Assembly (NCBI GenBank): GCA_049521175.1
Contig: JBEKPB010000001.1
Location: 92,440-156,439 of the forward strand
Source: Candidatus Limnocylindrales bacterium
GTDB lineage: Bacteria > Chloroflexota > Limnocylindria > Limnocylindrales > CSP1-4
Reading direction: 5' to 3'
DNA length: 64,000 bases
The notes below the pieces were generated by a model. The model searched no databases. It saw only the letters and a list, made by a program, of their open reading frames with translations, and was not told the DNA's origin. Of the stretch, positions 23,974-40,564 are shown piece by piece. Position 1 is the first letter of the stretch. Every line of letters starts with the position of its first letter. Made by a program: the position numbers and the translations under genes.

Positions 23974-24759
23974 CTACTCCCCCGCCGAAGGCGCCGCAGC
24001 GGCCGGGCTACCGGCGAGGGCGGCTCGCACGGCCTCGGGGCCGCGAGCCCGCCACTCCGCCGCGATGGCGGCCGTAGCCGTCGCCCCGACCCGGCATGCA
24101 CCGGAGGCGAGCATCGCCAGCATTGCATCGAGGGTTCGAACTCCGTGCGCGGCCTTGACGCCCACACTGTCGCCGACGACGCGCCGCATCAATGCGATCT
24201 CGCCCGGCTCCGCTCCACGCGGCGAGAAGCCGGTTCCGTTCTTCACGAACGCCGCTCGGGCCTCGACGGCCACGCGACATCCGGCTTCCACCTGCTCCGG
24301 GGTCAGATACGCGGTCTCGAGGATCACCTTGACCGGGGTTGGTGAGACGGTGTAGATGAGCCCCGCCAGCTCGTCTCGGACGTAACCCAGCTCGCCTGCC
24401 CGCAGCGCCCCGATGTTCACCACGACGTCGAGCTCGACTGCACCCTGATCGACAGCCAGGATGGCCTCGCGCTCCTTGATCGCGGACACGTTGGCGCCGT
24501 GCGGGAAACCGACCACGGTGGTGGGCCCGACCACCGACCGCCGGAGCCGACCGACGACGAATTGCAGGTCGGCCGGCCGGCAGCATACCGTGGCCGTCTC
24601 ATATTCGATCGCCAGGTCGCAACCGGCCTCGACGTCGGCTCGTGTGAGATCGGGTCTGAGCAGGGAGTGGTCTATGGTGCCCATCAGGGTCTTCTCGTCG
24701 AGCATCATGAGGTCCAGCGGCGCACGATTCCCGAGCCGCACCTTGAGGACTTGCTTCAT
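23974..24759 (-). CDS. Divergent deoxyribose-phosphate aldolase (DERA/DeoC family) paralog with no encapsulation peptide. It is the last gene of the BMC operon.
   Basis: The protein contains IDHSLLRPD, GFPHGAN, the Schiff-base Lys context VKVILET, FVKNGTGF and VGVKAAHGVRT. The canonical VCVNP, FVKTSTG and VKASGGIRT motifs are altered. Confidence 0.7.
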   Translation of the reverse strand: MKQVLKVRLGNRAPLDLMMLDEKTLMGTIDHSLLRPDLTRADVEAGCDLAIEYETATVCCRPADLQFVVGRLRRSVVGPTTVVGFPHGANVSAIKEREAILAVDQGAVELDVVVNIGALRAGELGYVRDELAGLIYTVSPTPVKVILETAYLTPEQVEAGCRVAVEARAAFVKNGTGFSPRGAEPGEIALMRRVVGDSVGVKAAHGVRTLDAMLAMLASGACRVGATATAAIAAEWRARGPEAVRAALAGSPAAAAPSAGE

Positions 24760-24767
24760 CCGTGCTC

Positions 24768-25853
24768 CTAGGACGCCGAGGCCACGATTGCCAGCGCGTG
24801 GCTGCCGCCAGCATCGATGGCGATCACGTTCGAGAGATGCGCCGGAAGGGTCGCCTGGCCGGATTCGTTGCCGCCCCAGACTACAACGGTTCCGTCAGCC
24901 TTGAGAGCCAGGCTGAAGTTGCCGCCGGCCGCGATGGCGACCGCGTGCAGGCCCGGCGGCACGGTCGTCTCGCCGTCGTTGTTGCCGCCCCAGGAGACAA
25001 CCGTCCCGTCCGACTTGAGGACGAGGTTGTGGGCGAAGCCGGCCGAGATCGCCGTCACCCCGCTCAGGCCGGCCGGAACCTTGACCACGCCGGAGGCGAC
25101 ATCGGTCGGGTATTTGTCCCCCCAGGCGACCACGGTTCCATCGCTCAGCAGGGCCAGGCTGAAGTCGTAGCCGGCCGAGACCTGAACTACGTTCTTGAGG
25201 CCGGTCGGCACGTCGGTCGCGCCGTTCGAGTCGTCGCCCCAGGCAACGACGGTTCCGTCGGACTTGAGGGCGATCGCATGCGAACCCGCGGCGCCGATTC
25301 CGACTACGTTGCTCAAGCTGGCCGGCGGGGTTGACTCGCTATCGGAGTTGTCGCCCCAGCCGACGACGGTGCCGTCGACCTTCAGGGCCAGGCCGAAGTT
25401 GCTACCCGCCGAGATCGCCCGGACATTGGTTGCGGAGACGGGTATCTGCGTCTCCGCCGGGTCGTTGGCGCCGCCCCATGCGGTGACGGTCCCATCAGAC
25501 TTGAGGGCCATACTGAAGTCGTCGCCCGCGGCAACGGCGACGACGCCGGTGAGTCCGGGTGCAACGTCGGTCTCGCCCGAGCTGTCGTCGCCCCAGGCCA
25601 CGACGGTCCCGCTCTGTACGGGCGCTGACGAAGCCATGCCGGACGGCCGCGCGCTCGGGGTCGTTCCCGCCGGAATTGACGGCGCGACGGTTCCGCGCGA
25701 GCCCGGAGGTCCGGAGCCAGCCGCTGGCGACGCGGCAGTGGACGGGGTCGGCGTGGTGCCGGCGAGCCCGCTGCAGGCCGCGACCGTGATTGCCAGGGCG
25801 CCCGTAAGGATGAAACCGCCAAGCCCGCAGAGGGCTTGTCTCCTCGTAGCCAT
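24768..25853 (-). CDS. RCC1-repeat (seven-bladed beta-propeller) protein with a Tat signal and a lipobox.
   Basis: MATRRQALCGLGGFILTGALAITVAACSG contains an RR motif and a lipobox Cys. The protein has seven repeats of about 50 aa of the form GTVVAWGDDSxGxTDVPxGLxxVVxVSAGxxFSLAL. The gene is 8 bp downstream of the next gene in the operon. Confidence 0.7.
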   Translation of the reverse strand: MATRRQALCGLGGFILTGALAITVAACSGLAGTTPTPSTAASPAAGSGPPGSRGTVAPSIPAGTTPSARPSGMASSAPVQSGTVVAWGDDSSGETDVAPGLTGVVAVAAGDDFSMALKSDGTVTAWGGANDPAETQIPVSATNVRAISAGSNFGLALKVDGTVVGWGDNSDSESTPPASLSNVVGIGAAGSHAIALKSDGTVVAWGDDSNGATDVPTGLKNVVQVSAGYDFSLALLSDGTVVAWGDKYPTDVASGVVKVPAGLSGVTAISAGFAHNLVLKSDGTVVSWGGNNDGETTVPPGLHAVAIAAGGNFSLALKADGTVVVWGGNESGQATLPAHLSNVIAIDAGGSHALAIVASAS

Positions 25854-25968: not shown

Positions 25969-26250
25969 CTAGACCGCCGCCGGCCCCTCCACGACGGCGT
26001 CCACAATCCCGACGACCAGCGTCCGGATCGGGGCGCCCGGCGCGTTCAATACCTGGCGGGCCGAGTTGCCCTCGTCGAGGATCAGGACCGTCTCTCCGGC
26101 GCCGGCACCAACGGTGTCAACCGCGATGAGATAGCCGCCGGCCGGGCGACCGGACGGGTCGAGGAGGTCGCACAGCAGGAGCGTCCGATTGTCGAAGTCG
26201 GGCGCGTTGATCGTGGAGACGACCGTGCCCACGACGCGGCCCAGCTTCAT
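25969..26250 (-). CDS. BMC vertex protein (BMC-P, EutN/CcmL/PduN family), copy 1.
   Basis: The sequence MKLGRVVGTVVSTINAPDFDNRTLLLCDLLDP...IAVDTVGAGAGETVLILDEGNSARQ is EutN-like. The start is at M125 of the track ORF, giving an ATGA overlap with the upstream gene. Confidence 0.8.
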   Translation of the reverse strand: MKLGRVVGTVVSTINAPDFDNRTLLLCDLLDPSGRPAGGYLIAVDTVGAGAGETVLILDEGNSARQVLNAPGAPIRTLVVGIVDAVVEGPAAV

Positions 26251-26531
26251 TGCTCGTTCCCCGCGAGCGCGGAGACCGCGTCCACGATCCCTACGATCGC
26301 GTGGTCCACCGGGACGAATGGGTCCGGCATCGCCTGGGCGGCCTCGCGGGCAGCCACGAAATAAACGAGCTCGCCGGGACCGGCCATGTGGACCGCGTCG
26401 GCCGCGACCAGCTGGCCACCGGTCGGTTTGAGCGACCGATCGAGCGGCTGGATCACGAGGAGCTTGACGCCCTCGAGTCCGGGCGCCTTGACGGTGGCGA
26501 CGACCGTGCCGATAACCCGTGCGAGCTGCAT
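26247..26531 (-). CDS. BMC vertex protein (BMC-P), copy 2.
   Basis: The sequence is MQLARVIGTVVATVKAPGLEGVKLLVIQPLD...VAADAVHMAGPGELVYF. Confidence 0.8.
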   Translation of the reverse strand: MQLARVIGTVVATVKAPGLEGVKLLVIQPLDRSLKPTGGQLVAADAVHMAGPGELVYFVAAREAAQAMPDPFVPVDHAIVGIVDAVSALAGNEQ

Positions 26532-26536
26532 GCCGG

Positions 26537-27199
26537 CTACCGGCCCTTCCGCCGTGGAGCGGGCGCCGAGGCTCGGGCCCGCGCCGCAGCGGTACCGGTG
26601 CCCGCGCCCCGGACCCGCTCACGGAACTGCCCGTCCGCCGCCAGGTTCACGGCCATCTCCGAATGCAGCTGCGGAATCACTCGCGACGCCAGGCCCGGCG
26701 CCCCGACGATTCGGCCGGCGCCGATCTCGACCGCGGCCTCAACCTCGCTGACGGGTCCGTCGAACAAGAGGTAGGCCTTGCCGCCGAGGTCGTCGGCCAG
26801 GCGCAGCTCGACGAGACGGACCCGCGCGCCCTTGAGCCCGGCGTCGGCGGCCTCGATGATCGCGGCGACGGTGGCGGTCTCGATGACGCCGAGGGCCTCG
26901 CCCGCGGCCTCTCGGCACGAGCCGCCGATAGCGGCGATCAACTCCGGGTGGGCATTCGGCAGGAAGACGACGTCGACGATGGCCGACGCGCCGGCCTCGC
27001 GGCCCGCCGCCAACGACTCTTCGACGTCTCCGACCGTGCCTCCGATGAGAACCAGGTACTTCCCGGGGTGCACCGTGCCGGCCCGCAGGACATCGATTGG
27101 GGCGCGCTTCGCCATGGCGTCGCCGGCGGCGATGCCGGCCGCGATCGAGTCGAGCTCGATAAGTGCGAGGGCCGGTTCGATGCCGAGGCTGGTTGTCAT
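26537..27199 (-). CDS. Tandem-domain BMC shell protein (BMC-T, PduT-like, two canonical PF00936-type domains).
   Basis: Domain 1 is IEPALALIELDSIAAGIAAGDAMAKRAPIDVL. Domain 2 is EALGVIETATVAAIIEAADAGLKGARVRLVELRL...GGKAYLLFDGPVSEVEAAVEIG. Confidence 0.75.
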   Translation of the reverse strand: MTTSLGIEPALALIELDSIAAGIAAGDAMAKRAPIDVLRAGTVHPGKYLVLIGGTVGDVEESLAAGREAGASAIVDVVFLPNAHPELIAAIGGSCREAAGEALGVIETATVAAIIEAADAGLKGARVRLVELRLADDLGGKAYLLFDGPVSEVEAAVEIGAGRIVGAPGLASRVIPQLHSEMAVNLAADGQFRERVRGAGTGTAAARARASAPAPRRKGR

Positions 27200-27201
27200 C
27201 G

Positions 27202-28665
27202 TCAGACGATCCGCAGCGCGCCGACGACGGTGATCCGCCGCTCGCGCGAGAAAGTCCGCGGCCGGGTCAAGCCATCGCCGGACGGGCTGGCGATCGAGAA
27301 CGAGGTGAAGCCCTCACCGCCCTCGCCCAGGCCCGCGAAGTTGGGCCCGTTGGTCACGAAGATGCTGCAGTTCATGGCGCGGGCCATCCTTGTGATGGTG
27401 TCGACGTTTGTGGAGTGGATGGACGCCGTGTGGCGGAAACCGTGCTCGGCGCGCACCGCCAGATCGATCGCCTGCTCGACGGTCCCGACCCGCACGACCG
27501 GGAGGAGCGGCATCATCTGCTCGGTCCAGACCAGGCTGTGGTCGCGCGGCACGTCCGCAATCAGGAGTCGCGGCGTCGGCTCGACCTGGACGCCGATCTC
27601 AGCCAGCATCCTGGCAGCGTCCTGGCCGATCCAGGCCGGGTTCATGACGCCTGGCTTCCCGGGCTGGCCGAGCTCCCTGAAGACAACTCGCTCGAGCCGG
27701 CGTAGCTCGTGCTCCTTCAGCAGGTAGGCGCCGTTCTGGGTCATAGACCGGATCAGCCGGTCGGCGACGGTATCCACGACGAGCACGAGCTTCTCGTCGA
27801 TGCAGACGATGTTGTTGTCGAACGAGGCGCCGCGGACTATGTCGCGGCCCGCTCGCTCTATGTCGGCGGTTCCGTCGACGACCGCGGGCGGGTTGCCGGG
27901 ACCGGCAGTGATCGCTCGCTTGTCGGACTTGAGCGCCTCGCGGACGACCGCCGGCCCGCCCGTCACGAGCAGCACGCGGACACTGGGGTGCAACATCAAG
28001 GCGCGTGCGGTTTCGATCGTCGGGTTCGCGGCGGCCGACACGAGGTTTGGCGGCCCTCCGGCACCGACGACGGCCCGGTTGATGAGCCGCACCGTTTCCG
28101 CCGAGCATCGCCGCGCGCTCGGGTGGGCGTTGAAGACGACGGCGTTGCCGGCCGAGACGATGCTGATCGTGTTGTTGATGATCGTCGAGGTGGGGTTCGT
28201 GACCGGCGTGATGGCCGCCACGACGCCGAACGGGGCGAACTCGGTGACCATCATCCCCGCATCGCCCGTGACGGCCTGGACCTCGAGGTCCTCTGGCCCT
28301 GGCGCCTTGGAGGCCACCAGGCGGTTCTTGACGACCTTGTCCTCGACGCGCCCGAGGTGCGTTTCCTGGTGGGCCATGCGGGCCAGCTGCTCCGAGTGGT
28401 CGAGCATCGAGCGACGCACGGCGTCGATGATGACCTTGCGGCCGGCCAGGCCCTGCACCTGGAACTCACCGAACGCTCGCGTGGCTGCGGCAACGGCATC
28501 GTCGATCGTGGCGTGGATGCCGTCGCCCAGCTCCGCGGCCGCGGCGGTCGCCAGCTCGGCCTCGGCTCGCAGCCCTTCGCCGGGCCGCGCGTCACCGGCC
28601 GTCGCCACGCGGCGGCGGACGCGCTCGATGATCTCGGTGATTTCGCGTTCGTCGAGCTCGCTCAT
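27202..28665 (-). CDS. CoA-acylating aldehyde dehydrogenase (PduP/EutE-like) with an N-terminal encapsulation-peptide-like helix.
   Basis: The aldehyde dehydrogenase core contains ITPVTNPTSTIINNTISIVSAGNAVVFNAHP and a catalytic Cys in DNNIVCIDEK. The N-terminus MSELDEREITEIIERVRRRVATAG is amphipathic. Confidence 0.85.
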   Translation of the reverse strand: MSELDEREITEIIERVRRRVATAGDARPGEGLRAEAELATAAAAELGDGIHATIDDAVAAATRAFGEFQVQGLAGRKVIIDAVRRSMLDHSEQLARMAHQETHLGRVEDKVVKNRLVASKAPGPEDLEVQAVTGDAGMMVTEFAPFGVVAAITPVTNPTSTIINNTISIVSAGNAVVFNAHPSARRCSAETVRLINRAVVGAGGPPNLVSAAANPTIETARALMLHPSVRVLLVTGGPAVVREALKSDKRAITAGPGNPPAVVDGTADIERAGRDIVRGASFDNNIVCIDEKLVLVVDTVADRLIRSMTQNGAYLLKEHELRRLERVVFRELGQPGKPGVMNPAWIGQDAARMLAEIGVQVEPTPRLLIADVPRDHSLVWTEQMMPLLPVVRVGTVEQAIDLAVRAEHGFRHTASIHSTNVDTITRMARAMNCSIFVTNGPNFAGLGEGGEGFTSFSIASPSGDGLTRPRTFSRERRITVVGALRIV

Positions 28666-28677
28666 CGTGTTCGCCCG

Positions 28678-28965
28678 CTACTTGCGGTATACCTCCGTCC
28701 CGCCTATTTCCCACGTGTCCACGATGGCCATGATCACGGCGTCGCACGGCCGGTCGCGCGTCATCTCCGTCTGGCGGGCGGAGCTGCCGGTGGCGTAGAG
28801 GACGACCTCGCCGACACCCGCGCCGACCGTGTCAGCGGCCACGACGTAGCCTCCAGCTTCCCGGTTCTGGGCATCGAGCTGGCGCACGACGAGGAGCTTC
28901 CAGCCCTCCATCAGCGGTTCTTTGCGACTCGCGACCACGGTTCCGGTTACCCGTCCAAGGAGCAT
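28678..28965 (-). CDS. BMC vertex protein (BMC-P), copy 3.
   Basis: The sequence is [31 protein letters not shown]...[17 protein letters not shown]. Confidence 0.8.
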
Positions 28966-29027
28966 CTCGTCACCGCCTGCATCAAGGCGCGCGCGCCGGT
29001 GTTAAGCCGGCGCGCCGCCACTCGCCT

Positions 29028-29336
29028 CTACTTCTGGCCGGCCTCGGCCTTGGCCTCGGCAAGCCGCCCGAGCGGCAGGACGAGGTCGACGTTGACGTGC
29101 GGCCGGGCGATCACATGGCTGGCGACGACTTCGCCGACCTTGGCGGCGTTTCGGACGCCGGCGTCGACCGCTGCCTTGACGGCGGCGACGTCGCCGCGCA
29201 CCACGGCGGTCACGTACCCGCCGCCGGTCTTCTCGTAGCTGACCAGCTCGACCTTGGCCGCCTTGACCATAGCGTCGGCGGCCTCGACCACTGCCGCGAA
29301 CCCGCGGGCTTCGATCATCCCAAGCGCTTCTGCCAT
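29028..29336 (-). CDS. BMC hexamer shell protein (BMC-H, PduA/EutM-like). It is the only one in the locus.
   Basis: The N-terminal sequence [60 protein letters not shown] is close to the BMC-H consensus. Confidence 0.9.
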
Positions 29337-29391
29337 CGACCTTGTCTCCTTCTCGTTCGGCTGCTCGACCTTCCGGTCGATGCCGTTGCTG

Positions 29392-30021
29392 TCATGCCTT
29401 CGCTTCGCGTCCTTCGAGTCCCTCGATCGCCGCCAGCGCGGCGCGCCAGCCGACGTCGATGTCGCGCTCCTCGCCGCCCAGGTATATGCGGCCCATCGAG
29501 CCGAAGGACCGAACTTCGAGGATGTTGATGTGCGCCGCCTTCTCCGCCTCGTTGGCCGCGAGAGCGGCGTAAGCGGCCGGTTCGAGTTCCAGCACGTAGA
29601 GCGTCTGGCCGGGTATCAGCATCTGGCCATGACGCGTCCGGTTGATGAGCTGAGCCTGGTGGTCGTCGATCCGGCGGATGATCTGCGATGACAGGACTCG
29701 CGGCTTGATCCGATCGGTCTCGGCCAGGCCGATGTCGGCGAGGATCGCGGCGCCGGCGGCGCGGACCTCCGCCTGCGACGGCGAGTGGATCTCGAGCATG
29801 CCGTAGTAGCGCTCGATGATCTGCATGCCGGGCTTGACTGTCGTCGACTTGAGCGCGACGTCGGTCAGCCGGTTGATCTCGATGCCGGGCGAGATCTCGA
29901 TCTCCAGCGAAGCGTCGCCGGCGAGCGGCAGGAATCCCTGCGCGACAGTCCCGAGGAAGGCGGCGTACTGGGCCTGGAGGCTATCCAGGAAGACGTACGC
30001 CCGAAGGTCAATATTGCCCAT
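29392..30021 (-). CDS. Putative circularly permuted tandem BMC shell protein (BMC-T, EutL/PduB-like).
   Basis: The protein is 209 aa with two permuted BMC-like halves ([19 protein letters not shown]...[26 protein letters not shown] and [31 protein letters not shown]...[12 protein letters not shown]). I assigned it by pattern only. Confidence 0.55.
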
Positions 30022-30904
30022 GTGCGCCCTTCTCTCCCGTGACGATCTTGACGCCGGCAGAAGCCCCGATCCGGGTCGCCCCGGCTGCGATCATGTCCTG
30101 GACATCCTCCGCGGTGCGGATGCCGCCGGAGGCCTTGACGCCCATCTTTGGGCCGACGGTCTCACGCATCAGCGCGACGTCGAAGACCGTCGCTCCGCCC
30201 TTGGCGTACCCGGTGGACGTCTTGACGAAGTCGGCTTTGGCCTGCTGAGCCAGGCGGCAGGCGATCACCTTCTCCTCGTCGGTGAGTAGGCCGGTCTCGA
30301 TGATCACCTTGCAAAGCGTGCCGGCCTCGTGGCAGGCGTCGGCGACGCGGGCGATGTCCTCGCGGACCTGGGCCTGCATCCCGCTCTTGAGCGCCCCGAT
30401 ATTGATGACCATGTCGATCTCGCGGGCGCCGTCGCGGATCGCCCGGCGCGCCTCGAACACCTTGATCTCTGTCGGCGTGGCTCCGAACGGGAAGCCCACG
30501 ACCGAGGCGACCCCGACATCCGAGTCGCGCAGGTCGTCGGCCGCGCGGCGCACCCAGGTGGGGTTGACGCAGACCGCAGCGAACCGGAACTCGGCCGCCT
30601 CGGCGCAGAGCTTGTCGATATCGGCGACCACGGCGTCTGGGCGCAGGAGCGTGTGGTCGATGTAGCGGGCGAGGTCCGTAGGAACGTCGGCCGCCTGGCC
30701 GTGGTACTCGACGCGGGAGGCACCTCCGGCCACGACGTCGCGGACCCTCGTTGCGCACTGGGCGGCGCATGCGCCGACGCACCCTGCGCAGATCCCGCTT
30801 TGGGCCCCTGGGGTGCCTGTGGCGCCGCGCCCGCTCAGCGACGCCAGCACCTGGCTGGTGATCCTCTCGACGAGCTCGTCGCGGGTGTACTTTGCCTCCG
30901 TCAT
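30008..30904 (-). CDS. deoC: Deoxyribose-phosphate aldolase (DERA) with an N-terminal encapsulation-peptide-like extension and a Cys-rich linker.
   Basis: The DERA core contains [37 protein letters not shown] and [10 protein letters not shown]. The N-terminus [25 protein letters not shown] is followed by [13 protein letters not shown]. Confidence 0.85.
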
Positions 30905-31533
30905 CCTCGAACCTCACCGGCCGCAGCCATGTAGCGGCGCTCTATCGCCGTGATCTTCTCGACCCTCGCGGCGTGCCGCCCGGGGGCCCATTCCGTGCCG
31001 AGCCAGGCCCGCACGATCTCGATGGCCAGTCCCTCACCGATGAAGCGAGCACCCAGTGTGAGGACGTTGGCGTGGTTGTGCTCGCGGCTGTTCCGCGCGC
31101 TTGAAAGGTCGTGGCACAGGGCGGCGCGGATGCCCGGTACCTTGTTGGCGACCATGCACGAGCCGATCCCGGCGCCGTCCAGGATGATTCCCCACTTGCA
31201 GGTCCCGTCCGCGACCAGGCGCGCGACTGCATGGGCGATGTCGGGGTAGTCCACGGGGTCGCTGCCGTGGGTGCCGCAGTCGTGGACCGCGAAGCCGCTC
31301 TCGGTCAGCATCTGCCCGATCACGTCCTTGAGCGCGGAGCCGCCGTGATCGGCGCCGATGGCGATAGCCACGCACTCGGAACCCGGCTGAGTTGTCGCGG
31401 GAGCCGCCACTGTCGCCGGCGAGTTTCCAGTTGCGCCCGTCCCGTCGCCCGCCAGCGTGGCGTCGACAATGCCGCGCACGATGTCGCGGAGCTCGTCCGC
31501 GGAAGGGGTCGCCGGAACGCGCTGGTCACTCAT
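30901..31533 (-). CDS. rpiB: Ribose-5-phosphate isomerase B (RpiB/LacAB family) with an N-terminal encapsulation-peptide-like extension.
   Basis: The RpiB core contains [14 protein letters not shown]...[22 protein letters not shown]...[12 protein letters not shown]. The N-terminus is [29 protein letters not shown], followed by a Pro/Thr/Ala-rich linker of about 50 aa. Confidence 0.8.
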
Positions 31534-32521
31534 GGCTCAGCACCCACACGGCCGTTTCCTCGTCCGTCACCATGACGTTGACGCAGCCCGACCGAAGGGC
31601 GGCCAGGGCGATCGGACCGCGGCCCGGTCCGGCAGCGACCCCAACGGTCAGTGCTTTGGCGCAGAGCTCTTCGAGCGGCAACCCGATGGTCCGCCGGTCG
31701 AGCGACGGCAGGGCGATGTGGCCGTCGAGCGACAGGAACCGCCCCAGGACGTCACCCACTGCCCCGGCGTCCGCAAGCGCCGCGAGGTCTGGTTCGCCAA
31801 TGAAGCCGGACGCGACATGGACGCTCTCGGCGCCCAGAACGCCCATGCTGAAGACGGCGGTCTGCGCAGAGCGCGCCGCGGCCAGCGTCTCGCCGACCGA
31901 TGCGTCTCGCTCGAGAGCTTCGCGCAGCTCGGGTGAGCCGACGATCGCAGGGGCGGGCATCAGTTGGATTGCGGCCCCGCTCGTGAGCCCGAACTGCTCC
32001 ACGACCTCTTGGGCCCGGGTGGGTCGGGCGGAGCGGGACATCGCTCCGTTCAGCTGCACGATCTCCGACGCCACGGTCCAGCCGGGGCGCAGGTGCGCGG
32101 CGACCTCGAGCATCGTGCGCCCCCACGACACGCCGATCGCACCCGTCGGTCGCAACGCGGTCAGGTGAGCGGCGGCAGCCCCGGCGACCCGCTCGCGGGC
32201 GAGAAGCTCCTGGTCCGCGGCGGAAGCGGTCGGCGGCACGTCGACGACGACCGCGCTGCGCAGGCCGAACCGACCGACGAGGCCGTCTTCGAGCTCCACC
32301 AGACGAACGTCGGGATGGACGATCTCGATCCGGACGGCCGACTCGCGCAGGGCGCGATCCAGGAGGCGGCCGACCTTGAACCGGCTGACACCCAACCGTT
32401 CGCCGACCTGCCCCTGGGTCAGGTGAAGCCGGTAATAGAGCTGCGCGGCGCGGAGCATCAGCCGAGTCTCCAGACCCAGCTCGTCCTGCCCGAGGATCGC
32501 CGCTCCGGCTCCCATGCTCAA
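31526..32521 (-). CDS. SorC/DeoR-type sugar-phosphate-binding transcriptional regulator. It is the first gene of the BMC operon.
   Basis: The N-terminal HTH is LMLRAAQLYYRLHLTQGQVGERLGVSRFKV. The C-terminal sugar-binding domain contains IGVSWGRT...GVLGAE. Confidence 0.75.
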   Translation of the reverse strand: MSMGAGAAILGQDELGLETRLMLRAAQLYYRLHLTQGQVGERLGVSRFKVGRLLDRALRESAVRIEIVHPDVRLVELEDGLVGRFGLRSAVVVDVPPTASAADQELLARERVAGAAAAHLTALRPTGAIGVSWGRTMLEVAAHLRPGWTVASEIVQLNGAMSRSARPTRAQEVVEQFGLTSGAAIQLMPAPAIVGSPELREALERDASVGETLAAARSAQTAVFSMGVLGAESVHVASGFIGEPDLAALADAGAVGDVLGRFLSLDGHIALPSLDRRTIGLPLEELCAKALTVGVAAGPGRGPIALAALRSGCVNVMVTDEETAVWVLSHE

Positions 32522-34245: not shown

Positions 34246-35112
34246 CTAGGCCTGAACCAGGCCGCCGACAAACCGCGTCAGAACGCGGGCCAGCGCGGGG
34301 CCGGCCGCCTCGGCCGCGGCAAGCACCTCGGCGTGGCTCAGCTCCGAGCCCGACAACCCGGCGCCCGGATTCGTCACGAGCGAGACGCCGCAGACGCGCG
34401 AACCCGCCCAGTGTGCAGCCACGGCCTCGAGCGCGGTGGACATCCCGACCGCATCGACACCCAGGCGGTCCACCATGCGTACTTCTGCCGGAGTCTCGTA
34501 GCTGGGCCCGAGAAGGCACGCGTACACGCCGTCTGCCAGCGCCACCCCCTCTGCATCGGCCGCGGCGTGCAGACGCGATCTCAGATCAGCGTCCCAGACG
34601 CCGGTCATGTCCGGGAAGCGCGGCCCGATCTCCGGCGCGTTCGGACCGGTGAGGGGTGAACGCCCAGTGAGATTGATGTGGTCGGCAATCGCCATCAGGG
34701 TGCCGGCGGCGTAGGTCCGGTTGACGCCGCCCGCCGCGTTTGTGAGCACGACGGACTCGACGCCCAGCAGCGCCATCAGTAGCACCGGCTGGACCACGAA
34801 CCCCGCCGAATGGCCTTCGTACAGATGGAAGCGACCCTGCTGGACGACGACCGGGGCCCCGGCAAGGCGCCCGAAAAGGAGCCTACCGGCGTGCCCAGGT
34901 GCCGTGGCCGCGGGCCAACCGGGCAACTCGGCGAATGGAATGGCGACGTCGAGGTCGATGGAGTCGGCCAGCCCGCCAAGACCTGAACCGAGCACCAGGC
35001 CTGCGAGCGGCCTGAGGTTCGTCCGCTCACGGACGGCCCGCTCCAGCAAAGCCAGCAGCGGAGGCTGTTCGGCCGGCGATATCTCACGCCCGAGGACGAA
35101 ATCCGCGGTCAT
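34246..35112 (-). CDS. punA: Purine nucleoside phosphorylase (trimeric PNP/MTAP family).
   Basis: The protein contains GLVLGSGLGGLAD, HLYEGH and VGMSTALEAVAAHWAG. The ATG at 35112 overlaps the cdd stop. Confidence 0.8.
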   Translation of the reverse strand: MTADFVLGREISPAEQPPLLALLERAVRERTNLRPLAGLVLGSGLGGLADSIDLDVAIPFAELPGWPAATAPGHAGRLLFGRLAGAPVVVQQGRFHLYEGHSAGFVVQPVLLMALLGVESVVLTNAAGGVNRTYAAGTLMAIADHINLTGRSPLTGPNAPEIGPRFPDMTGVWDADLRSRLHAAADAEGVALADGVYACLLGPSYETPAEVRMVDRLGVDAVGMSTALEAVAAHWAGSRVCGVSLVTNPGAGLSGSELSHAEVLAAAEAAGPALARVLTRFVGGLVQA

Positions 35113-35600
35113 CGACCGCGGCCACCGGACGCCGACCCGCTCGCCGCAGCCTCGTCCAGGTTCTTCGCCCAGAAGGCGAGCGGCAGCAGGTCGCCCAGCC
35201 GGGCGGCGTAGACGGAGTCGCTCAGACTGGAGGCGGCGAACACGAGGAGGTCCGGGCCGAATTCGGCGAGGAGCTGGCGGCAGATCCCGCACGGACTCGA
35301 CGGCTCGGCGGTCGGGGTGACCACCACGCAGACCCGGACCGACGTCTCGCCACCGACAACCGCCCCAACGACGGCGCTCCGCTCGGCGCAGATCGTGGCC
35401 CCGTACGAGGCCGACTCGACGTTGCATCCGGGATAGATCGCGCCGCTGCCCCCGAGGATCGCCGCACCCACATGGAACCGCGAGTACGGCACCCGGGCGC
35501 GGCCCTGGGCCGCGAGGGCGGCAGCAAGCAGATCGTCGAACTCACGCAATCGCGTCGAGGCTTCCGCCCGGTCGATGAGCTCTATCCCGGCAACCGTCAT
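35109..35600 (-). CDS. cdd: Cytidine deaminase.
   Basis: The zinc motifs CAERSA and PCGICRQ are present. The protein is 163 aa, from MTVAGIELIDRAEA. Confidence 0.85.
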   Translation of the reverse strand: MTVAGIELIDRAEASTRLREFDDLLAAALAAQGRARVPYSRFHVGAAILGGSGAIYPGCNVESASYGATICAERSAVVGAVVGGETSVRVCVVVTPTAEPSSPCGICRQLLAEFGPDLLVFAASSLSDSVYAARLGDLLPLAFWAKNLDEAAASGSASGGRGR

Positions 35601-35690
35601 CGAAGACACCTCACTGAGCAATTGCCTTTCCCCCAGTAGTGATAGCGTCTGCGCCAACCACCGATCACCGCCGGCGAGGAGAGGACACCG

Positions 35691-36563
35691 ATGGACACCA
35701 GCGGCCCTGACGAGTCTCGAGCTGGGGCGGCCGAGCGCCGTGCCGACGCCCCAACCAGCGAGACTGGGGCACAGTATCACCTGCATCTCTCCCCGGGCCA
35801 GATCCCGGCGACCGTGCTCATGCCCGGGGACCCCGGCCGCGTCACCAAGATGATGGCCGGCTGGGATGGCGGCGAGGAGCTCGCCTTCCACCGCGAGTAC
35901 CGATCGGCTCGAGGGATCTACAAGGGCGTCCCGATCGGCGCGATATCGAGCGGTGTCGGAGCGCCCAGTCTCGAGATCGCCGCCCACGAGTTCGCGACGA
36001 TCGGCGGCAAGACGGTCATCCGCGTGGGGACGTGCGGAGCCCTTCGCGCCGAGATCCAGCCCGGCGACCTGATCGTGCCCGTCGCCGCGGTCCGGCGCGA
36101 CGGCACGGCCGACCGGTACTTGCCACTCGACCACCCGGCCTTCGCCGAACCCGAGGTGTACATGGCCCTGGTCGAGGCGTGCGAGCGGCTCGGGTATCGC
36201 TACCACGTCGGCATCGTGTGCAGCGTCGGCTCTTTCTACCTCGGGCAGGCACGTCCGGTGACCGGCGGTTTCTGGCAGTCGGGTGTCGATGGCCTGGTCG
36301 ACGACCTGCGCGAGGCCGGTGTCGGATGCCTTGAAATGGAGTGCTCGGCGCTGTTCGTCCTGGCCCGGCTGTTCGGGATGCGAAGTGGCGCCGTCCTCGG
36401 CGCCGTCGCGAACCGGGTCACCAACGCCTTCGGCGACAACGGCGCTGAGGAGCGGGCGATCTCGGTCGCCAACGAAGCCGTGGTCATCCTCGACGACTGG
36501 GGCCGGCGCAAGGCTTCCGCCGGCAAGGCGAACTTCTACCCGTCTCTGTTGCGGGGCGTTTGA
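35691..36563 (+). CDS. Nucleoside phosphorylase of the PNP/UDP family 1 (uridine phosphorylase or DeoD-type).
   Basis: The protein contains GVPIGAISSGVGAPSLEIAAHEF, GTCGAL and EMECSALFVLARLFG. It is transcribed divergently from cdd. Confidence 0.75.
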   Translation: MDTSGPDESRAGAAERRADAPTSETGAQYHLHLSPGQIPATVLMPGDPGRVTKMMAGWDGGEELAFHREYRSARGIYKGVPIGAISSGVGAPSLEIAAHEFATIGGKTVIRVGTCGALRAEIQPGDLIVPVAAVRRDGTADRYLPLDHPAFAEPEVYMALVEACERLGYRYHVGIVCSVGSFYLGQARPVTGGFWQSGVDGLVDDLREAGVGCLEMECSALFVLARLFGMRSGAVLGAVANRVTNAFGDNGAEERAISVANEAVVILDDWGRRKASAGKANFYPSLLRGV

Positions 36564-36644
36564 GCCCGACACATCGGTCTACGGCTCGGCCACGGATCAG
36601 TCTACGGCGCGGCCGCAACGATCGATCGCGGAGCCGGATGCACT

Positions 36645-37724
36645 TTAGGTCGCCGATTCGCGCTCGTACGGCTTGCCGTCCGCAGCCGGGGCGATGCTCC
36701 GTCCGATCAGGCCCGCCAGAATGACGATCGTGATGATGTAGGGCAACGCCTCCCAGAACTCGCCCGGGACCTGGCTCATCAAGTCGCCCAGGTCGCCCGT
36801 TGGGGGCGAGATCTGCAGCGACGTGCTCAGCCCCGTGGCCGACGCGAAGATCAGGGCCGCCCCGAAAGCCCCGAAGGGCGTCCACCGGCCCACGATCATC
36901 GCCGCGAGCCCAATGAACCCGCGTCCGGCCGTCATGTTGGCGTCGAACTTGTTGGTGTGCTCCATGGTCAGCCAGGCGCCGCCCAGCGCCGCCAGCGCTC
37001 CGGACATGACAACATTCCGATACCGCAGTCGGATGACGTCGATGCCGACCGTCTCGGCGGCTCGCGGATGCTCACCGGTGGCGCGCGTTCGGAGGCCCCA
37101 GCGAGATCGGAACAACATGATCTGCAGGATGATCACGATCACGATCGTCGTTAGCCCGATCGGCCCCTGACTCAGGACGGCGTTGATCAGCCAGCCGACC
37201 ACCGGCAGATCGACCACTCCCTGCGGGACCTGGTACGCGGCAAACTGGCCGGCGCCGACGGGCGACTGCGATGCGATGAGGCTGTAGACATAGCCGGTGA
37301 TCCCCGCAGCGCCGATGTTGATGATCGTGCCGCTGATGATCTGGTCCACCCGGAGCGATATGGCCATCCAGGCGTGCAGCAGGGAAACGAGCATTCCGGC
37401 CGCGATGGCCGCCACCAGGCCGACCAGGAGGGGCATTGTCACGCCGAACAAGGGCATGGGCGTACCCTCGCCCATGACCCCGACCGCGGCGGCACCGACG
37501 ATCCAGCCGACGAACGCTGCCGTCAGCATGATCCCTTCCAGACCGATGTTGACGACACCCGACCGCTCGCACATGACTCCGCACAACGCCGCCAGCGTGA
37601 TCGGAATCGCAACGGCGACCGTGGTCTGGGACATGTAGCCGATGTTCTCGAGCACGTATCCGAGGAACTGGAAAACGATCCCCAGGGCTGGCAGGGCATC
37701 GAGGCTCTGGATGATCCCGCTCAT
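36645..37724 (-). CDS. ABC transporter permease (BMP-family nucleoside importer, NupQ/YufQ-like).
   Basis: This is a polytopic permease encoded adjacent to a BMP-family substrate-binding protein and a tandem ATPase. Confidence 0.75.
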   Translation of the reverse strand: MSGIIQSLDALPALGIVFQFLGYVLENIGYMSQTTVAVAIPITLAALCGVMCERSGVVNIGLEGIMLTAAFVGWIVGAAAVGVMGEGTPMPLFGVTMPLLVGLVAAIAAGMLVSLLHAWMAISLRVDQIISGTIINIGAAGITGYVYSLIASQSPVGAGQFAAYQVPQGVVDLPVVGWLINAVLSQGPIGLTTIVIVIILQIMLFRSRWGLRTRATGEHPRAAETVGIDVIRLRYRNVVMSGALAALGGAWLTMEHTNKFDANMTAGRGFIGLAAMIVGRWTPFGAFGAALIFASATGLSTSLQISPPTGDLGDLMSQVPGEFWEALPYIITIVILAGLIGRSIAPAADGKPYERESAT

Positions 37725-38899
37725 ACCACGCCCTCCGCTTCCCGACCCACTGCGACCCCCATGTCGGACATGGACCCCGGTTTGGCGGCCCTACGATCCA
37801 ACCAGCGCCTCAGAGCGTTCACAACCAGGAAGACCAGAATGATCGCCTGGAGTGCGTCGACCAACTGGGATGGAACGCCGGCCTGGATCTGCATCGCCTG
37901 CGAGCCGGCCCGCATCGCCCCCAGGAGGAGGCCCGCGAACATGACGCCGAATGGGTTGGACCGTCCGAGCAATGCCACGGTGATGGCGTCGAAGCCGACG
38001 GTTGTGTCGTAGCCGGGCGCGATCTGATGGACGACGCCCATGAGGGTCGTCGCTCCGGCCAACCCGGCCATCAGGCCCGCGATCGACATCGTCAGGACGA
38101 TCAGTCGATTGGTCTTCATGCCGCCGTAGCGGGCCGCGTCGGGGTTGGCGCCGGCCGCCCGGATCTCGAACCCGAGCGTCGTCCTGTAGAGCAGGAACCA
38201 GATGATCGGAACCGCGGCCAGGGCGATCAAGATACCGAGGTGGCCGTCGCGCCCGAGGATGATCGGGAGGGCGGCGTTCGTGGTGGTTACGTCGGCCGAG
38301 ATGGGCTGGTGCGCATTTGGGAGGGCGAGCGGTCCGCTAATCGCCCAGTAGGTCGCGAAGACGAAGACGTAGTTGAGCATGATCGTGGTCACGACTTCGT
38401 GGGCCCCCGACGTGGCCTTGAGGGCACCCGGGATGAACCCGGCCGCGGCGCCGAACGCCGCACCTACCAGAAGGGCCAGCGGGACGGTTATGTACGAACT
38501 CTGGTTCGCACCGACGACCGTAGCAACCAGCAACGCTCCGACGGTACCCATCAGGAACTGGCCGCGCCCGCCGATGTTGAACAACCCCGCCTTGAAGCCG
38601 AGCCCCACGCCCAGGCCCGCCAGTATCAACGGCGTGGCGTAGTTCAGCGTGGACGTTAGACCGTTGGGAGTAGCCACACCCTGTAGCAATGCCAGATACG
38701 CCGCGATCGGGAGCCCAACGTCGAAGTTCGAATGGCCGGCCACGAGACCGCTGAAGAGGGTAATTCCCACGGCTCCAACCAGGAGCGCCAGAACGATGGC
38801 GACCAGCGGCTCGGCGATCGGCTGGGCCATTGCGGAAATGGCTTTGGCGATCGCCTTCGGAAGGCCCGCCCTCGGCTGGATCGTCGCGGGACCGCTCAC
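37721..38899 (-). CDS. ABC transporter permease (NupP/YufP-like).
   Basis: This is a polytopic permease. Its start overlaps the ATPase stop. Confidence 0.75.
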   Translation of the reverse strand: MSGPATIQPRAGLPKAIAKAISAMAQPIAEPLVAIVLALLVGAVGITLFSGLVAGHSNFDVGLPIAAYLALLQGVATPNGLTSTLNYATPLILAGLGVGLGFKAGLFNIGGRGQFLMGTVGALLVATVVGANQSSYITVPLALLVGAAFGAAAGFIPGALKATSGAHEVVTTIMLNYVFVFATYWAISGPLALPNAHQPISADVTTTNAALPIILGRDGHLGILIALAAVPIIWFLLYRTTLGFEIRAAGANPDAARYGGMKTNRLIVLTMSIAGLMAGLAGATTLMGVVHQIAPGYDTTVGFDAITVALLGRSNPFGVMFAGLLLGAMRAGSQAMQIQAGVPSQLVDALQAIILVFLVVNALRRWLDRRAAKPGSMSDMGVAVGREAEGVV

Positions 38900-40464: not shown

Positions 40465-40564
40465 GATTTCCTCGATCGGCCCCTGGCCGGCCGGATGCGG
40501 CGAGCGGGCCGCGCCATGATGGCGCGACCCGCTCGGGATGACTATTTGCCTGCCTGAGTCTCGG

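What the first reader, a model, noticed from the sequence alone, without database searches (positions are those of the whole stretch)
28560..31533. All three core enzymes carry N-terminal amphipathic-helix extensions resembling encapsulation peptides.
Each of the three enzymes carries an N-terminal extension that the cytosolic homologues lack:
- the aldehyde dehydrogenase (EITEIIERVRRRV, N-terminus at 28665);
- DERA ([16 protein letters not shown], followed by a [13 protein letters not shown] linker, N-terminus at 30904);
- RpiB ([17 protein letters not shown], followed by a Pro/Thr/Ala linker of about 50 aa, N-terminus at 31533).

Each extension is an 15-18-residue helix with an i, i+3/4 hydrophobic periodicity, followed by a flexible linker. 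This is the canonical signature of BMC cargo targeting. RpiB is therefore predicted to be luminal, which would place pentose-phosphate isomerisation inside the shell. The Cys-rich linker on DERA is unusual.
Basis: partly seen in the sequence, partly recalled or inferred. Interest (0 to 1): 0.7.

Follow-up and report, generated by a model that had tools for sequence, protein, structure and literature searches.

The report
Cargo-targeting helices on microcompartment enzymes
The three enzymes of this deoxyribose-degrading bacterial microcompartment each carry an N-terminal amphipathic helix of the type that packs cargo into the protein shell; this was already published for this organelle class in 2024, so the finding is correct but ordinary, apart from a conserved four-cysteine module on the aldolase that the paper's text does not discuss.

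Summary
RpiB, DERA and the acylating aldehyde dehydrogenase (AldDH) start at 31533, 30904 and 28665 on the minus strand. They carry about 55, 75 and 33-48 extra N-terminal residues that solved cytosolic homologues lack, as does an extension-less DERA paralogue in the same window.

Each extension begins with a conserved amphipathic helix:
- AlphaFold2 predicts the helix for DERA (residues 8-23) and RpiB (residues 12-28).
- For AldDH the evidence is hydrophobic moment, helix propensity and conservation only.

The locus is a sugar-phosphate-utilising (SPU) microcompartment from a Limnocylindria (Chloroflexota) genome. Dwyer, Sutter & Kerfeld 2024 (PMC11585597) already reported N-terminal encapsulation peptides on SPU DERA, RPI and AldDH (all subtypes except SPU6). 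This locus is therefore a new member of a known kind.

1. The DERA "Cys-rich linker" is not a linker. CxxCxxxCxxxC plus the following [17 protein letters not shown] is conserved: all four Cys are present in 75/75 related loci, and most distant SPU DERAs have a Cys-rich equivalent. It is predicted to be structured and may be a metal site.
2. The RpiB linker is about 27 residues, not about 50.
3. RpiB has Asp at the catalytic Cys66 position. The tested SPU homologue is essentially inactive on ribose-5-phosphate, so luminal pentose-phosphate isomerisation is doubtful.

The parts
31526..32521 (-). SorC-type regulator (sugar-binding domain); first gene of the operon. Its stop overlaps the RpiB start by 8 nt.
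   Evidence: Pfam Sugar-bind, E 8.5e-49; sequence
30901..31533 (-). RpiB-family protein, 210 aa. The RpiB domain is residues 57-194; the N-terminal extension is about 55 residues.
   Evidence: Pfam LacAB_rpiB 57-194; PDB RpiB chains align from residue 57; independent JGI/ENA gene calls give the same 210-aa product
31450..31500 (-). RpiB encapsulation-peptide-like helix [17 protein letters not shown] (residues 12-28)
   Evidence: AF2 helix 12-28, pLDDT 71-84; hydrophobic moment 0.72, top 0.5% of own windows; R16, V19, V23 and L27 are 98-100% conserved in 53 loci
31369..31449 (-). RpiB disordered Pro/Ala/Thr-rich linker (residues 29-55, about 27 aa)
   Evidence: AF2 pLDDT 34-39, no secondary structure; length ranges 21-48 aa and the sequence is not conserved in homologues
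31177..31179 (-). Asp119 codon at the position of the catalytic Cys66 of E. coli RpiB
   Evidence: Alignment to 1nn4: GIILDGAG versus GILICGTG; Asp in 119/120 homologues; coordinates checked
30008..30904 (-). Deoxyribose-5-phosphate aldolase (DERA), 298 aa. The catalytic core runs from about residue 76. D164, K228 and K257 are present. The start is in an ATGA overlap with the RpiB stop.
   Evidence: TIGR00126 deoC, 281 bits, residues 78-288; PDB DERAs align from residue 76-77; residue positions
30836..30883 (-). DERA encapsulation-peptide-like helix [16 protein letters not shown] (residues 8-23)
   Evidence: AF2 helix 8-23, pLDDT 54-62; L11, I15, T16, V19 and L20 are 94-100% conserved in 69 loci; the DERA N-extension profile gives a weak match to the EutC N-terminal peptide, 3abo_B 15-47, E 0.19, not significant
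30791..30835 (-). DERA short variable Gly/Ala/Pro linker (residues 24-38)
   Evidence: AF2 pLDDT below 50 for residues 23-37; length 6-32 aa and not conserved
30698..30790 (-). DERA conserved Cys4 module [31 protein letters not shown] (residues 39-69): CxxCxxxCxxxC followed by a helix and a strand
   Evidence: All four Cys present in 75/75 related loci and invariant in A1. AF2 helix 46-59 and strand 64-67, pLDDT 62-69. Of 62 informative distant representatives, 37 have the canonical motif and 15 have at least 4 Cys in other spacings
27202..28665 (-). Acylating aldehyde dehydrogenase (EutE/PduP type), 487 aa; catalytic Cys288 present; no C-terminal extension
   Evidence: NF011927 PRK15398, 620 bits, aligned residues 5-487; PDB BMC AldDHs 5jfl and 4c3s align from residue 34-49 to the end; Cys288
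28606..28650 (-). AldDH encapsulation-peptide-like helix EREITEIIERVRRRV (residues 6-20)
   Evidence: Hydrophobic moment 0.85, top 0.2% of own windows; low helix cost. I12, I13, V16 and R19 are 97-100% conserved in 67 loci, with 301 synonymous versus 179 nonsynonymous codon differences. The Met is conserved, and the frame often opens only 3-4 codons upstream. No structure prediction was run for this protein.
28522..28605 (-). AldDH segment between the helix and the core (residues 21-48). It is length-constrained (23-28 aa) and moderately conserved, so less linker-like than in RpiB.
29392..30021 (-). BMC-T (double-stacking, CcmP-like) shell protein
   Evidence: NF053796 CcmP, 343 bits against a cut-off of 340; CsoS1D_N in precomputed Pfam
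29028..29336 (-). BMC-H shell protein
   Evidence: Pfam BMC, E 1.5e-29
28678..28965 (-). BMC-P (pentamer) shell protein 1
   Evidence: Pfam EutN_CcmL, E 4.9e-30
26537..27199 (-). BMC-T (single, PduT-like tandem BMC) shell protein
   Evidence: Pfam BMC in two stretches; TIGR02526 hit below its cut-off
26247..26531 (-). BMC-P shell protein 2
   Evidence: Pfam EutN_CcmL, E 4.3e-26
25969..26250 (-). BMC-P shell protein 3 (93 aa, ATG at 26250)
   Evidence: Translation; called as a 93-aa EutN_CcmL gene on identical contigs
23974..24759 (-). Second deoC gene without the helix/Cys extension, presumed cytosolic; used as the internal comparator
   Evidence: TIGR00126, 185 bits, residues 27-232; 44% identical to the BMC DERA from its residue 82 onward

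Best explanation
The region is the enzyme core of a sugar-phosphate-utilising (SPU) bacterial microcompartment. The operon order is regulator, RpiB, DERA, BMC-T(dp), BMC-H, BMC-P, AldDH, BMC-T(s), BMC-P, BMC-P.

The three enzymes each carry an N-terminal encapsulation peptide, a 15-17-residue amphipathic helix. By analogy with PduP, PduD and EutC, I infer that its hydrophobic face and its i/i+4 acid-base pairs let the cargo proteins bundle with one another and dock onto the inner shell surface. The enzymes would then be co-condensed and enclosed as the shell assembles.

[quoted passage not shown] The substrate would come from the adjacent nucleoside transporter, phosphorylase and deaminase genes.

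RpiB is very probably luminal. With Asp in place of the catalytic Cys, it more likely acts as a packaging or scaffolding partner of DERA than as a ribose-5-phosphate isomerase.

In DERA the helix is joined by a short variable linker to a conserved Cys4 + helix + strand module. I take this module to be a structured, probably metal-stabilised part of the enzyme's N-terminal domain.

Shown here: the anatomy, the conservation, the predicted helicity, the absence from cytosolic homologues and the locus context. Inferred: the encapsulation itself, the binding mode, the metabolic flux and any metal binding.
For: Locus identity:
- Pfam/NCBIfam assign DERA, RpiB, EutE-type AldDH, BMC-H, two BMC-T and three BMC-P, with a SorC regulator.
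- A nucleoside ABC transporter, two PNP/UDP phosphorylases and a cytidine deaminase lie next door.

Extensions absent from non-BMC homologues.

Helicity:
- AF2 predicts a helix at DERA residues 8-23, then disorder at 23-37.
- AF2 predicts a helix at RpiB residues 12-28 (pLDDT 71-84), then disorder at 30-51.

Amphipathicity: hydrophobic moments of 0.85, 0.72 and 0.45 against 0.43-0.71 for four reference EPs, whose sequences I recalled from memory.

Conservation and translation:
- The hydrophobic-face residues are 83-100% conserved in 53-69 species-level loci, while the linkers vary in length and sequence.
- The codon differences include many synonymous changes.
- The start Met is conserved, and in many loci the reading frame opens only 3-4 codons upstream.
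- Independent JGI/ENA gene calls give the same 210, 298 and 487-aa products.
- The same three helices occur in Actinomycetota loci of the same architecture.

Similarity to a validated EP: the DERA N-extension profile weakly matches the EutC N-terminal peptide in PDB 3abo_B (E 0.19, not significant). The AldDH aligns to the EutE-type NCBIfam model from residue 5.

Literature:
- PMC11585597 reports N-terminal extensions or EPs on all SPU DERAs, on SPU RPIs, and on AldDHs of all subtypes except SPU6. It also reports a DERA-RPI complex, insolubility caused by the DERA extension, and an inactive RPI with Cys66 replaced by Asp.
- PMC12339742 defines metabolosome EPs and shows that they drive cargo condensation.
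- PMC12747264 reports EP-dependent recruitment of GFP-tagged SPU-type enzymes to shells in archaeal homologues.
Against: - There is no experimental evidence for these particular proteins.
- The AldDH post-helix segment is length-constrained and fairly conserved, which is less typical of an EP linker.
- AF2 confidence for the DERA helix is only moderate (pLDDT 54-62), and its hydrophobic moment is unremarkable within its own protein.
- The locus lacks PduS, PTAC and alcohol dehydrogenase among the ORFs I scanned, so how NAD+ and CoA are recycled inside the shell is unexplained.
Confidence: 0.85

Rival explanations
1. The extensions are artefacts of start-codon choice: translation really begins downstream, and the 'helices' are untranslated leader sequence.
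For: GTG codons exist downstream, for example at DERA codon 19 and AldDH codon 20. Some database homologues are annotated with starts inside or after the helix, for example P0146, P0155, P0208 and the L085 AldDH.
Against: - Amino-acid-level conservation of the helices across 53-75 loci, with many synonymous codon changes.
- A conserved Met at the homologous position, with the open frame often beginning only 3-4 codons upstream.
- Start/stop overlaps typical of translational coupling.
- Identical gene calls from independent pipelines.
- The helices persist between the domains of RPI-DERA fusion proteins, where they must be translated.
- PMC11585597 documents that short annotations of these genes are errors.
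Confidence: 0.02
2. The helices are real but serve enzyme-enzyme assembly or regulation (DERA-RPI complex formation, oligomerisation, solubility control) rather than targeting to the shell.
For: EPs are now known to drive cargo-cargo condensation (PMC12339742). The SPU DERA extension causes aggregation when the protein is expressed alone, and DERA and RPI form a complex (PMC11585597). All three helices carry i/i+4 acid-base pairs compatible with helix bundling (sequence; inference).
Against: - The DERA-RPI complex forms without the DERA extension (PMC11585597), so the helix is not needed for that interaction.
- Extension-bearing enzymes of this kind are found in BMC loci or BMC-containing genomes, and the cytosolic DERA paralogue in the same window lacks the extension.
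- Condensation and encapsulation are not mutually exclusive, so this is mostly a refinement of the main explanation.
Confidence: 0.1
3. One reading: the Cys-rich stretch is simply an unusual flexible linker between the targeting helix and the enzyme.
For: It lies between the helix and the catalytic core, and it is rich in Gly and Ala.
Against: - All four Cys are present in 75/75 related loci, and the following VR..GA.R..G positions are invariant or nearly so.
- The motif or a Cys/His-rich equivalent recurs in most distant SPU DERAs and in RPI-DERA fusions.
- AF2 predicts helix 46-59 and strand 64-67 with higher confidence than the true linker at 24-37.
- The variable-length, unconserved part lies upstream of the motif.
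Confidence: 0.05
4. The N-terminal amphipathic helices are membrane-targeting sequences that tether the enzymes to the cytoplasmic membrane.
For: Short terminal amphipathic helices can act as membrane anchors in other bacterial proteins (general knowledge, not tested here).
Against: - The helices are acidic/basic with a narrow hydrophobic face. The DERA N-extension profile, which includes its helix, gives a weak, non-significant match to the EutC encapsulation peptide, and the AldDH aligns to the EutE-type model from residue 5.
- The genes are interleaved with shell genes.
- The same arrangement is a published hallmark of SPU cargo (PMC11585597).
Confidence: 0.02

Closest known systems
SPU (sugar-phosphate-utilising) bacterial microcompartment cargo: DERA, RPI and AldDH with encapsulation peptides (Dwyer, Sutter & Kerfeld 2024, PMC11585597; Sutter et al. 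2021, PMC8217296; Axen et al. 2014, PMC4207490)
   Same: - Same enzyme set and adjacency (RPI next to DERA).
- A BMC-P triplet, a BMC-T(s) plus a CcmP-like BMC-T(dp), and a sugar-responsive regulator.
- A DERA extension of about 70-75 residues, with the catalytic D/K/K numbering offset by only one residue from the characterised Chloroflexi enzyme (D164/K228/K257 here versus D165/K229/K258).
- RPI with an N-terminal helix, a disordered linker and Asp at the Cys66 position.
- AldDH with an N-terminal helix, as in all subtypes except SPU6.
   Different: - The organism is a Limnocylindria MAG lineage rather than the characterised GWB2_54_36 Chloroflexi (SPU6) operon.
- The regulator is SorC-type rather than GntR/UTRA.
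- The RPI linker is about 27 residues rather than about 75.
- No PduS was found, although the paper lists one for all subtypes except SPU6. Yet the AldDH is EutE-type with an N-terminal rather than C-terminal peptide, so I could not assign the subtype.
- The paper's text describes the DERA extension as a helix plus two low-confidence strands and does not mention the four cysteines.
Canonical metabolosome encapsulation peptides of PduP, PduD, EutC and EutE (reviewed and dissected in PMC12339742)
   Same: - Terminal helix of about 18 residues with one hydrophobic face.
- Acid/base residues one helical turn apart.
- A poorly conserved disordered linker, clearly so in RpiB.
- Comparable hydrophobic moments.
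- The DERA N-extension profile weakly matches the EutC N-terminus.
   Different: - Different cargo enzymes. DERA and RpiB are specific to SPU.
- The DERA helix is followed by an additional conserved Cys4 module.
- Function was not tested here.
Catalytically inactive cargo that acts as a scaffold (CcmM gamma-carbonic-anhydrase domain; EP-bearing inactive AldDH copies in GRM loci), as discussed in PMC11585597
   Same: RpiB keeps its fold and most active-site residues (the His99 equivalent is present) but lacks the catalytic Cys. It carries an EP and sits next to its binding partner DERA.
   Different: Loss of activity is inferred for this protein only from the Asp substitution and from the assay on a homologue. 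An altered substrate specificity is not excluded.

Membership tests
BMC encapsulation peptide (EP) | Terminal (or inter-domain) extension absent from non-BMC homologues | tested here: met
   The domain models and solved cytosolic structures begin at residue 76-81 (DERA), 57 (RpiB) and 34-49 (AldDH). The in-window deoC paralogue lacks the extension.
BMC encapsulation peptide (EP) | Predicted amphipathic alpha-helix of about 15-20 residues | tested here: met
   AF2 predicts helices at DERA 8-23 and RpiB 12-28. Hydrophobic moments are 0.45, 0.72 and 0.85. For AldDH only the moment, helix propensity and conservation were tested; no structure prediction was run.
BMC encapsulation peptide (EP) | Joined to the enzyme by a poorly conserved, flexible linker | tested here: inconclusive
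   - Clearly met for RpiB: 21-48 aa, pLDDT below 40.
- Met for DERA only for residues 24-38, after which a conserved Cys4 module follows.
- The AldDH segment is length-constrained (23-28 aa) and moderately conserved.
BMC encapsulation peptide (EP) | Gene lies in a locus that encodes BMC shell proteins | tested here: met
   BMC-H, two BMC-T and three BMC-P genes are interleaved with the three enzyme genes.
BMC encapsulation peptide (EP) | Hydrophobic face plus oppositely charged residues one helical turn apart (metabolosome EP signature, PMC12339742) | tested here: met
   Read from the sequence and the conservation table.
- DERA: E10/R14, with consensus E13/R17.
- RpiB: R20/D24, with consensus D17/R21.
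- AldDH: E11/R15 and E14/R18.
The functional relevance is inferred.
BMC encapsulation peptide (EP) | Necessary and/or sufficient for packaging cargo into shells | not testable with these tools
   This needs GFP fusions and shell purification. Homologous evidence exists only for other systems (PMC12339742, PMC12747264).
SPU bacterial microcompartment | DERA (PF01791) together with an acylating AldDH in a shell-gene locus | tested here: met
   The DERA catalytic D164/K228/K257 and the AldDH Cys288 are present.
SPU bacterial microcompartment | RPI (PF02502) adjacent to DERA, with Asp replacing the catalytic Cys66 | tested here: met
   The genes overlap in ATGA. Asp119 aligns with Cys66. Asp is present in 119/120 homologues.
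SPU bacterial microcompartment | Triplet of BMC-P genes and at least one BMC-T(s) | tested here: met
   BMC-P at 28678-28965, 26247-26531 and 25969-26250; BMC-T(s) at 26537-27199.
SPU bacterial microcompartment | Assignment to one of the seven published subtypes (SPU1-7) | tested here: inconclusive
   The CcmP-like BMC-T(dp) and the EutE-type AldDH with an N-terminal EP point away from SPU6. The absence of PduS and PTAC points towards SPU6. The supplementary tables and BMC Caller were not available.
Catalytically competent ribose-5-phosphate isomerase B | Catalytic base Cys66 (E. coli numbering), or the alternative Glu75 of the M. tuberculosis type | tested here: not met
   Asp is at the Cys66 position. 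By my manual alignment from memory of the Mtb sequence, Ser is at the Glu75-equivalent position (not tool-tested). The His99 equivalent is present. The score just passes the TIGR01120 rpiB cut-off (148.6 versus 138.65), so this is family membership without the catalytic base.
Cys4 metal-binding (Zn or Fe-S) module | Four conserved Cys (or Cys/His) ligands in a compact motif | tested here: met
   CxxCxxxCxxxC is present in 75/75 related loci. Of 62 distant representatives, 37 carry it and 15 carry other spacings with at least 4 Cys. Cys-to-His variants occur.
Cys4 metal-binding (Zn or Fe-S) module | Similarity to a described metal-binding domain or motif | tested here: not met
   There is no Pfam hit at E up to 10 and no meaningful PDB hit. 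The spacing appears in the literature only in ferredoxin motif-subtype tables.
Cys4 metal-binding (Zn or Fe-S) module | Metal or cluster actually bound; ligand geometry | not testable with these tools
   Model coordinates are not returned by the tool. Testing needs ICP-MS, UV-vis or EPR on purified protein.

The most novel reading that the evidence does not exclude
The conserved CxxCxxxCxxxC module that follows the targeting helix of SPU DERA may be a metal site (structural Zn, or an Fe-S cluster or redox-active dithiols). If so, folding, oligomerisation or encapsulation of the signature enzyme would be metal- or redox-dependent. This would be a feature of microcompartment cargo targeting that the published text on SPU BMCs does not discuss.

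It is not essential to the organelle type. Acidimicrobiia loci of the same architecture have DERAs that keep the helix and the KVR..GA.RV..HG element but lack the cysteines. Its presence does not track with PduS, which was absent in all three locus types I looked at.
Probability: 0.35. Interest if true: 0.55.

Novelty: new member of a known kind. Interest (0 to 1): 0.25.

Why it matters
This is a clean, well-conserved example of the published SPU cargo-targeting architecture in an abundant soil and freshwater Chloroflexota lineage (Limnocylindria).
- It confirms that database start sites for these genes should include the helices. Several homologues are annotated too short.
- It cautions against reading the RpiB gene as evidence for luminal pentose-phosphate isomerisation.
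- The one point that could add knowledge is the Cys4 module on DERA. If it binds a metal, it would affect how SPU enzymes are expressed and engineered, since the full-length enzyme was insoluble in E. coli in the published work. It could also link organelle assembly to metal or redox state.

Tried and rejected
- Supplementary tables of PMC11585597 (EP lists and subtype tables) are not held, so the SPU subtype and the published EP boundaries could not be compared directly.
- A Pfam scan of the three isolated extensions at E up to 10 gave nothing.
- A PDB profile search with the DERA extension gave only non-significant hits. The one of interest is the EutC N-terminal peptide (E 0.19).
- A literature search for the Cys spacing found only ferredoxin motif-subtype tables.
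- I tested whether the Cys4 module compensates for a missing PduS-type redox partner. The window-type locus (Cys4), an Acidimicrobiia-type locus with a Cys-less DERA, and a locus with a CxxxxCxxxCxxxC variant all have the same gene set and no PduS. This gives no support for the idea.
- The AF2 output gives no coordinates, so the geometry of the four Cys and their contact with the TIM barrel could not be examined.
- Mis-called starts and a membrane-anchor reading were considered and rejected (see the rival explanations).

Full report
WHAT IS THERE

The window is high-GC (about 68%). On the minus strand it carries an operon in this order:
- SorC-type regulator (31526-32521)
- RpiB-family protein (30901-31533, 210 aa)
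- deoxyribose-5-phosphate aldolase, DERA (30008-30904, 298 aa)
- CcmP-like BMC-T(dp) (29392-30021)
- BMC-H (29028-29336)
- BMC-P (28678-28965)
- EutE/PduP-type acylating aldehyde dehydrogenase, AldDH (27202-28665, 487 aa)
- PduT-like BMC-T(s) (26537-27199)
- two more BMC-P (26247-26531 and 25969-26250)

Independent JGI and ENA gene calls on contigs that encode the identical DERA give the same gene set and the same product lengths of 210, 298 and 487 aa. Upstream lie a PnrA-type nucleoside ABC transporter, two PNP/UDP-family phosphorylases, a cytidine deaminase and an SSB gene. Downstream lie an RCC1-repeat protein and a second deoC gene without an extension. Close homologues are annotated as Candidatus Limnocylindrales / Chloroflexota. 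This gene set defines the sugar-phosphate-utilising (SPU) microcompartment (PMC4207490, PMC8217296, PMC11585597).

CHECK OF THE OBSERVATION

The three start coordinates and all quoted peptides are exact.

The extensions are extra relative to homologues:
- DERA: solved DERA structures align only from residue 76-77 of the window protein, and the TIGR00126 deoC model from residue 78. The extension-less deoC paralogue at 23974-24759 is 44% identical from residue 82 onward and has no counterpart of the first 80 residues.
- RpiB: solved RpiB structures align from residue 57.
- AldDH: BMC-type AldDH structures align from residue 34-49.

Each extension starts with a short helix:
- AlphaFold2 with family alignments predicts a helix at DERA residues 8-23 followed by a disordered stretch at 23-37.
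- It predicts a helix at RpiB residues 12-28 (pLDDT 71-84) followed by a disordered stretch at 30-51 (pLDDT 34-39).
It has the highest hydrophobic moment of the three (0.85, top 0.2% of windows in its own protein) and a low helix cost.
- RpiB scores 0.72 (top 0.5%). The DERA helix scores 0.45, similar to PduP at 0.47 and EutE at 0.43, both computed on reference sequences I recalled from memory.

ARE THE STARTS REAL?

I collected 80 related loci from one-genome-per-species contigs and located the three genes in them.
- The helices are conserved at the protein level. Hydrophobic-face positions are 83-100% identical and polar positions are freer.
- The codon differences from the window include many synonymous changes: AldDH 301 synonymous versus 179 nonsynonymous, DERA 242 versus 359, RpiB 264 versus 299.
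- For AldDH the Met sits at a conserved position. In many loci the open frame begins only 3-4 codons upstream of it.
- The start codons overlap the preceding stops (ATGA for RpiB/DERA, 8 nt for SorC/RpiB), which is typical of translational coupling.
- In RPI-DERA fusion proteins the helix and the Cys motif lie between the two domains, where they must be translated.
- The same three helices are present in Actinomycetota loci of the same architecture. There, one AldDH and several RpiB genes are annotated with starts that cut off the helix. PMC11585597 warns about exactly this annotation error.

I consider the mis-called-start alternative excluded for practical purposes.

WHAT IT IS AND HOW IT LIKELY WORKS

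The three peptides meet the bioinformatic definition of encapsulation peptides (EPs):
- a terminal extension absent from non-BMC homologues;
- an amphipathic helix of about 15-17 residues;
- a linker to the enzyme;
- a gene in a shell locus.

They also show the acid/base pairs one helical turn apart that PMC12339742 identified as part of the metabolosome EP signature. The pairs are DERA E10/R14 (consensus E13/R17), RpiB R20/D24, and AldDH E11/R15 and E14/R18, read from the sequence.

The DERA N-extension profile weakly matches the N-terminal peptide of E. coli EutC in PDB 3abo_B. EutC's N-terminus is an established EP, but the match is not significant (E 0.19). The AldDH aligns to the EutE-type NCBIfam model from its residue 5.

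By analogy (inferred, not shown), the helices bundle with each other and with the shell's inner face, so that the cargo is condensed and enclosed. [quoted passage not shown] The DERA catalytic residues D164, K228 and K257 and the AldDH Cys288 are present.

1. The DERA "[13 protein letters not shown] linker" is not a linker.
- The variable, unconserved part is residues 24-38. Its length is 6-32 residues in related loci.
- From C39 on, the motif CxxCxxxCxxxC and the following [17 protein letters not shown] are conserved, with all four Cys present in 75 of 75 loci.
- AF2 predicts a helix at 46-59 and a strand at 64-67 with higher confidence than the linker. This matches the "helix plus beta strands" structural element described for SPU DERA in PMC11585597.
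- I ran a profile search with the extension against 1.84 billion cluster representatives. Of 62 informative hits, 37 have the canonical motif, 15 have at least four Cys in other spacings, 7 have two or three Cys (six of them with a nearby His), and 3 have one or none.
- This pattern suggests a metal site. However, it matches no Pfam or PDB family and no described motif.
- Acidimicrobiia DERAs in an otherwise identical locus lack the cysteines, so the module is dispensable for the organelle type.

2. The RpiB linker is about 27 residues. The whole extension is about 55 residues.

3. RpiB being luminal is well supported, but luminal pentose-phosphate isomerisation is not.
- Asp119 replaces the catalytic Cys66, as in 119 of 120 homologues.
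- PMC11585597 found that the same substitution is universal in SPU RPIs. The purified homologue had negligible ribose-5-phosphate isomerase activity, it forms a roughly 1:1 complex with DERA, and no pathway links RPI to DERA chemistry.
- A packaging or scaffolding role is the better-supported reading.

COMPARISON WITH WHAT IS KNOWN, AND NOVELTY

Dwyer, Sutter & Kerfeld (Commun Biol 2024, PMC11585597) state three things:
- all SPU DERAs have an N-terminal extension of about 70 residues with an amphipathic helix;
- SPU RPIs have a typical N-terminal EP plus an unstructured linker;
- SPU AldDHs have an N-terminal EP in all subtypes except SPU6.

The finding therefore rediscovers a published property in a new genome, which makes it a new member of a known kind. 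I could not assign the subtype. The CcmP-like BMC-T(dp) and the EutE-type AldDH with an N-terminal EP argue against SPU6. The absence of PduS, PTAC and alcohol dehydrogenase among the ORFs scanned resembles SPU6.

The only element that the paper's text does not discuss is the conserved Cys4 motif. A word search of the paper found cysteine mentioned only in connection with RPI and the mass-spectrometry settings.

VERDICT

- Observation: confirmed.
- Interpretation: partly supported. The EP reading is right. The "linker" and "isomerisation" statements are not.
- Interest is low (0.25) because the phenomenon is published. The Cys4 module is a modest lead worth a biochemical test.

Noticed in passing
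window 23974-24759 (-) and 24768-25853 (-): A second deoC gene (TIGR00126, 185 bits) without the helix/Cys extension lies directly downstream of the shell genes. An RCC1-repeat protein with a lipoprotein-like N-terminus separates the two. The organism therefore appears to keep one BMC-targeted and one presumably cytosolic DERA side by side.
   Followed up: partly
window 26537-27199 (-): The PduT-like BMC-T(s) has His in 'TVHPGKY'. As I recall it, Salmonella PduT has the [4Fe-4S]-ligand Cys at this position ('TICPGKF'). This comparison is from memory and was not tested with a tool.
   Followed up: no
window 10000-48000: No PduS, PTAC (PduL) or alcohol dehydrogenase gene was found among the ORFs scanned around the locus, nor in identical contigs. 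How NAD+ and CoA would be recycled inside the shell is therefore unexplained.
   Followed up: partly
window 34246-41752: A nucleoside salvage and uptake block lies next to the BMC operon. It comprises a PnrA-like binding protein, an ABC ATPase, two permeases, two PNP/UDP phosphorylases and a cytidine deaminase. This is consistent with deoxyribose phosphate as the substrate. No phosphopentomutase was seen in the ORFs I scanned.
   Followed up: partly
P0146, P0155, P0208 (RpiB homologues); L085 12254-12532 (AldDH): Public gene calls for several homologues start inside or after the targeting helix. For example, the L085 AldDH is called from MLEHAERL although the conserved 'SQDEIQGIIERVRGRL' is in frame upstream. 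These are systematic start-site mis-annotations of BMC cargo genes.
   Followed up: partly
L084 9340-10830; L085 9537-10870 and 12281-13740: In these contigs the RpiB, DERA and AldDH genes are split by frameshifts, and AldDH is fused to the following BMC gene in L085. These look like assembly errors rather than pseudogenes, and they produce many truncated 'DERA' proteins of 130-200 aa in the protein databases.
   Followed up: no
P0297, P0323, P0337 (about 500-aa proteins from the representative search): These RPI-DERA fusion proteins carry the targeting helix and the Cys motif between the two domains. The EP is therefore internal in these proteins, consistent with the SPU3 chimeras described in PMC11585597.
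   Followed up: no
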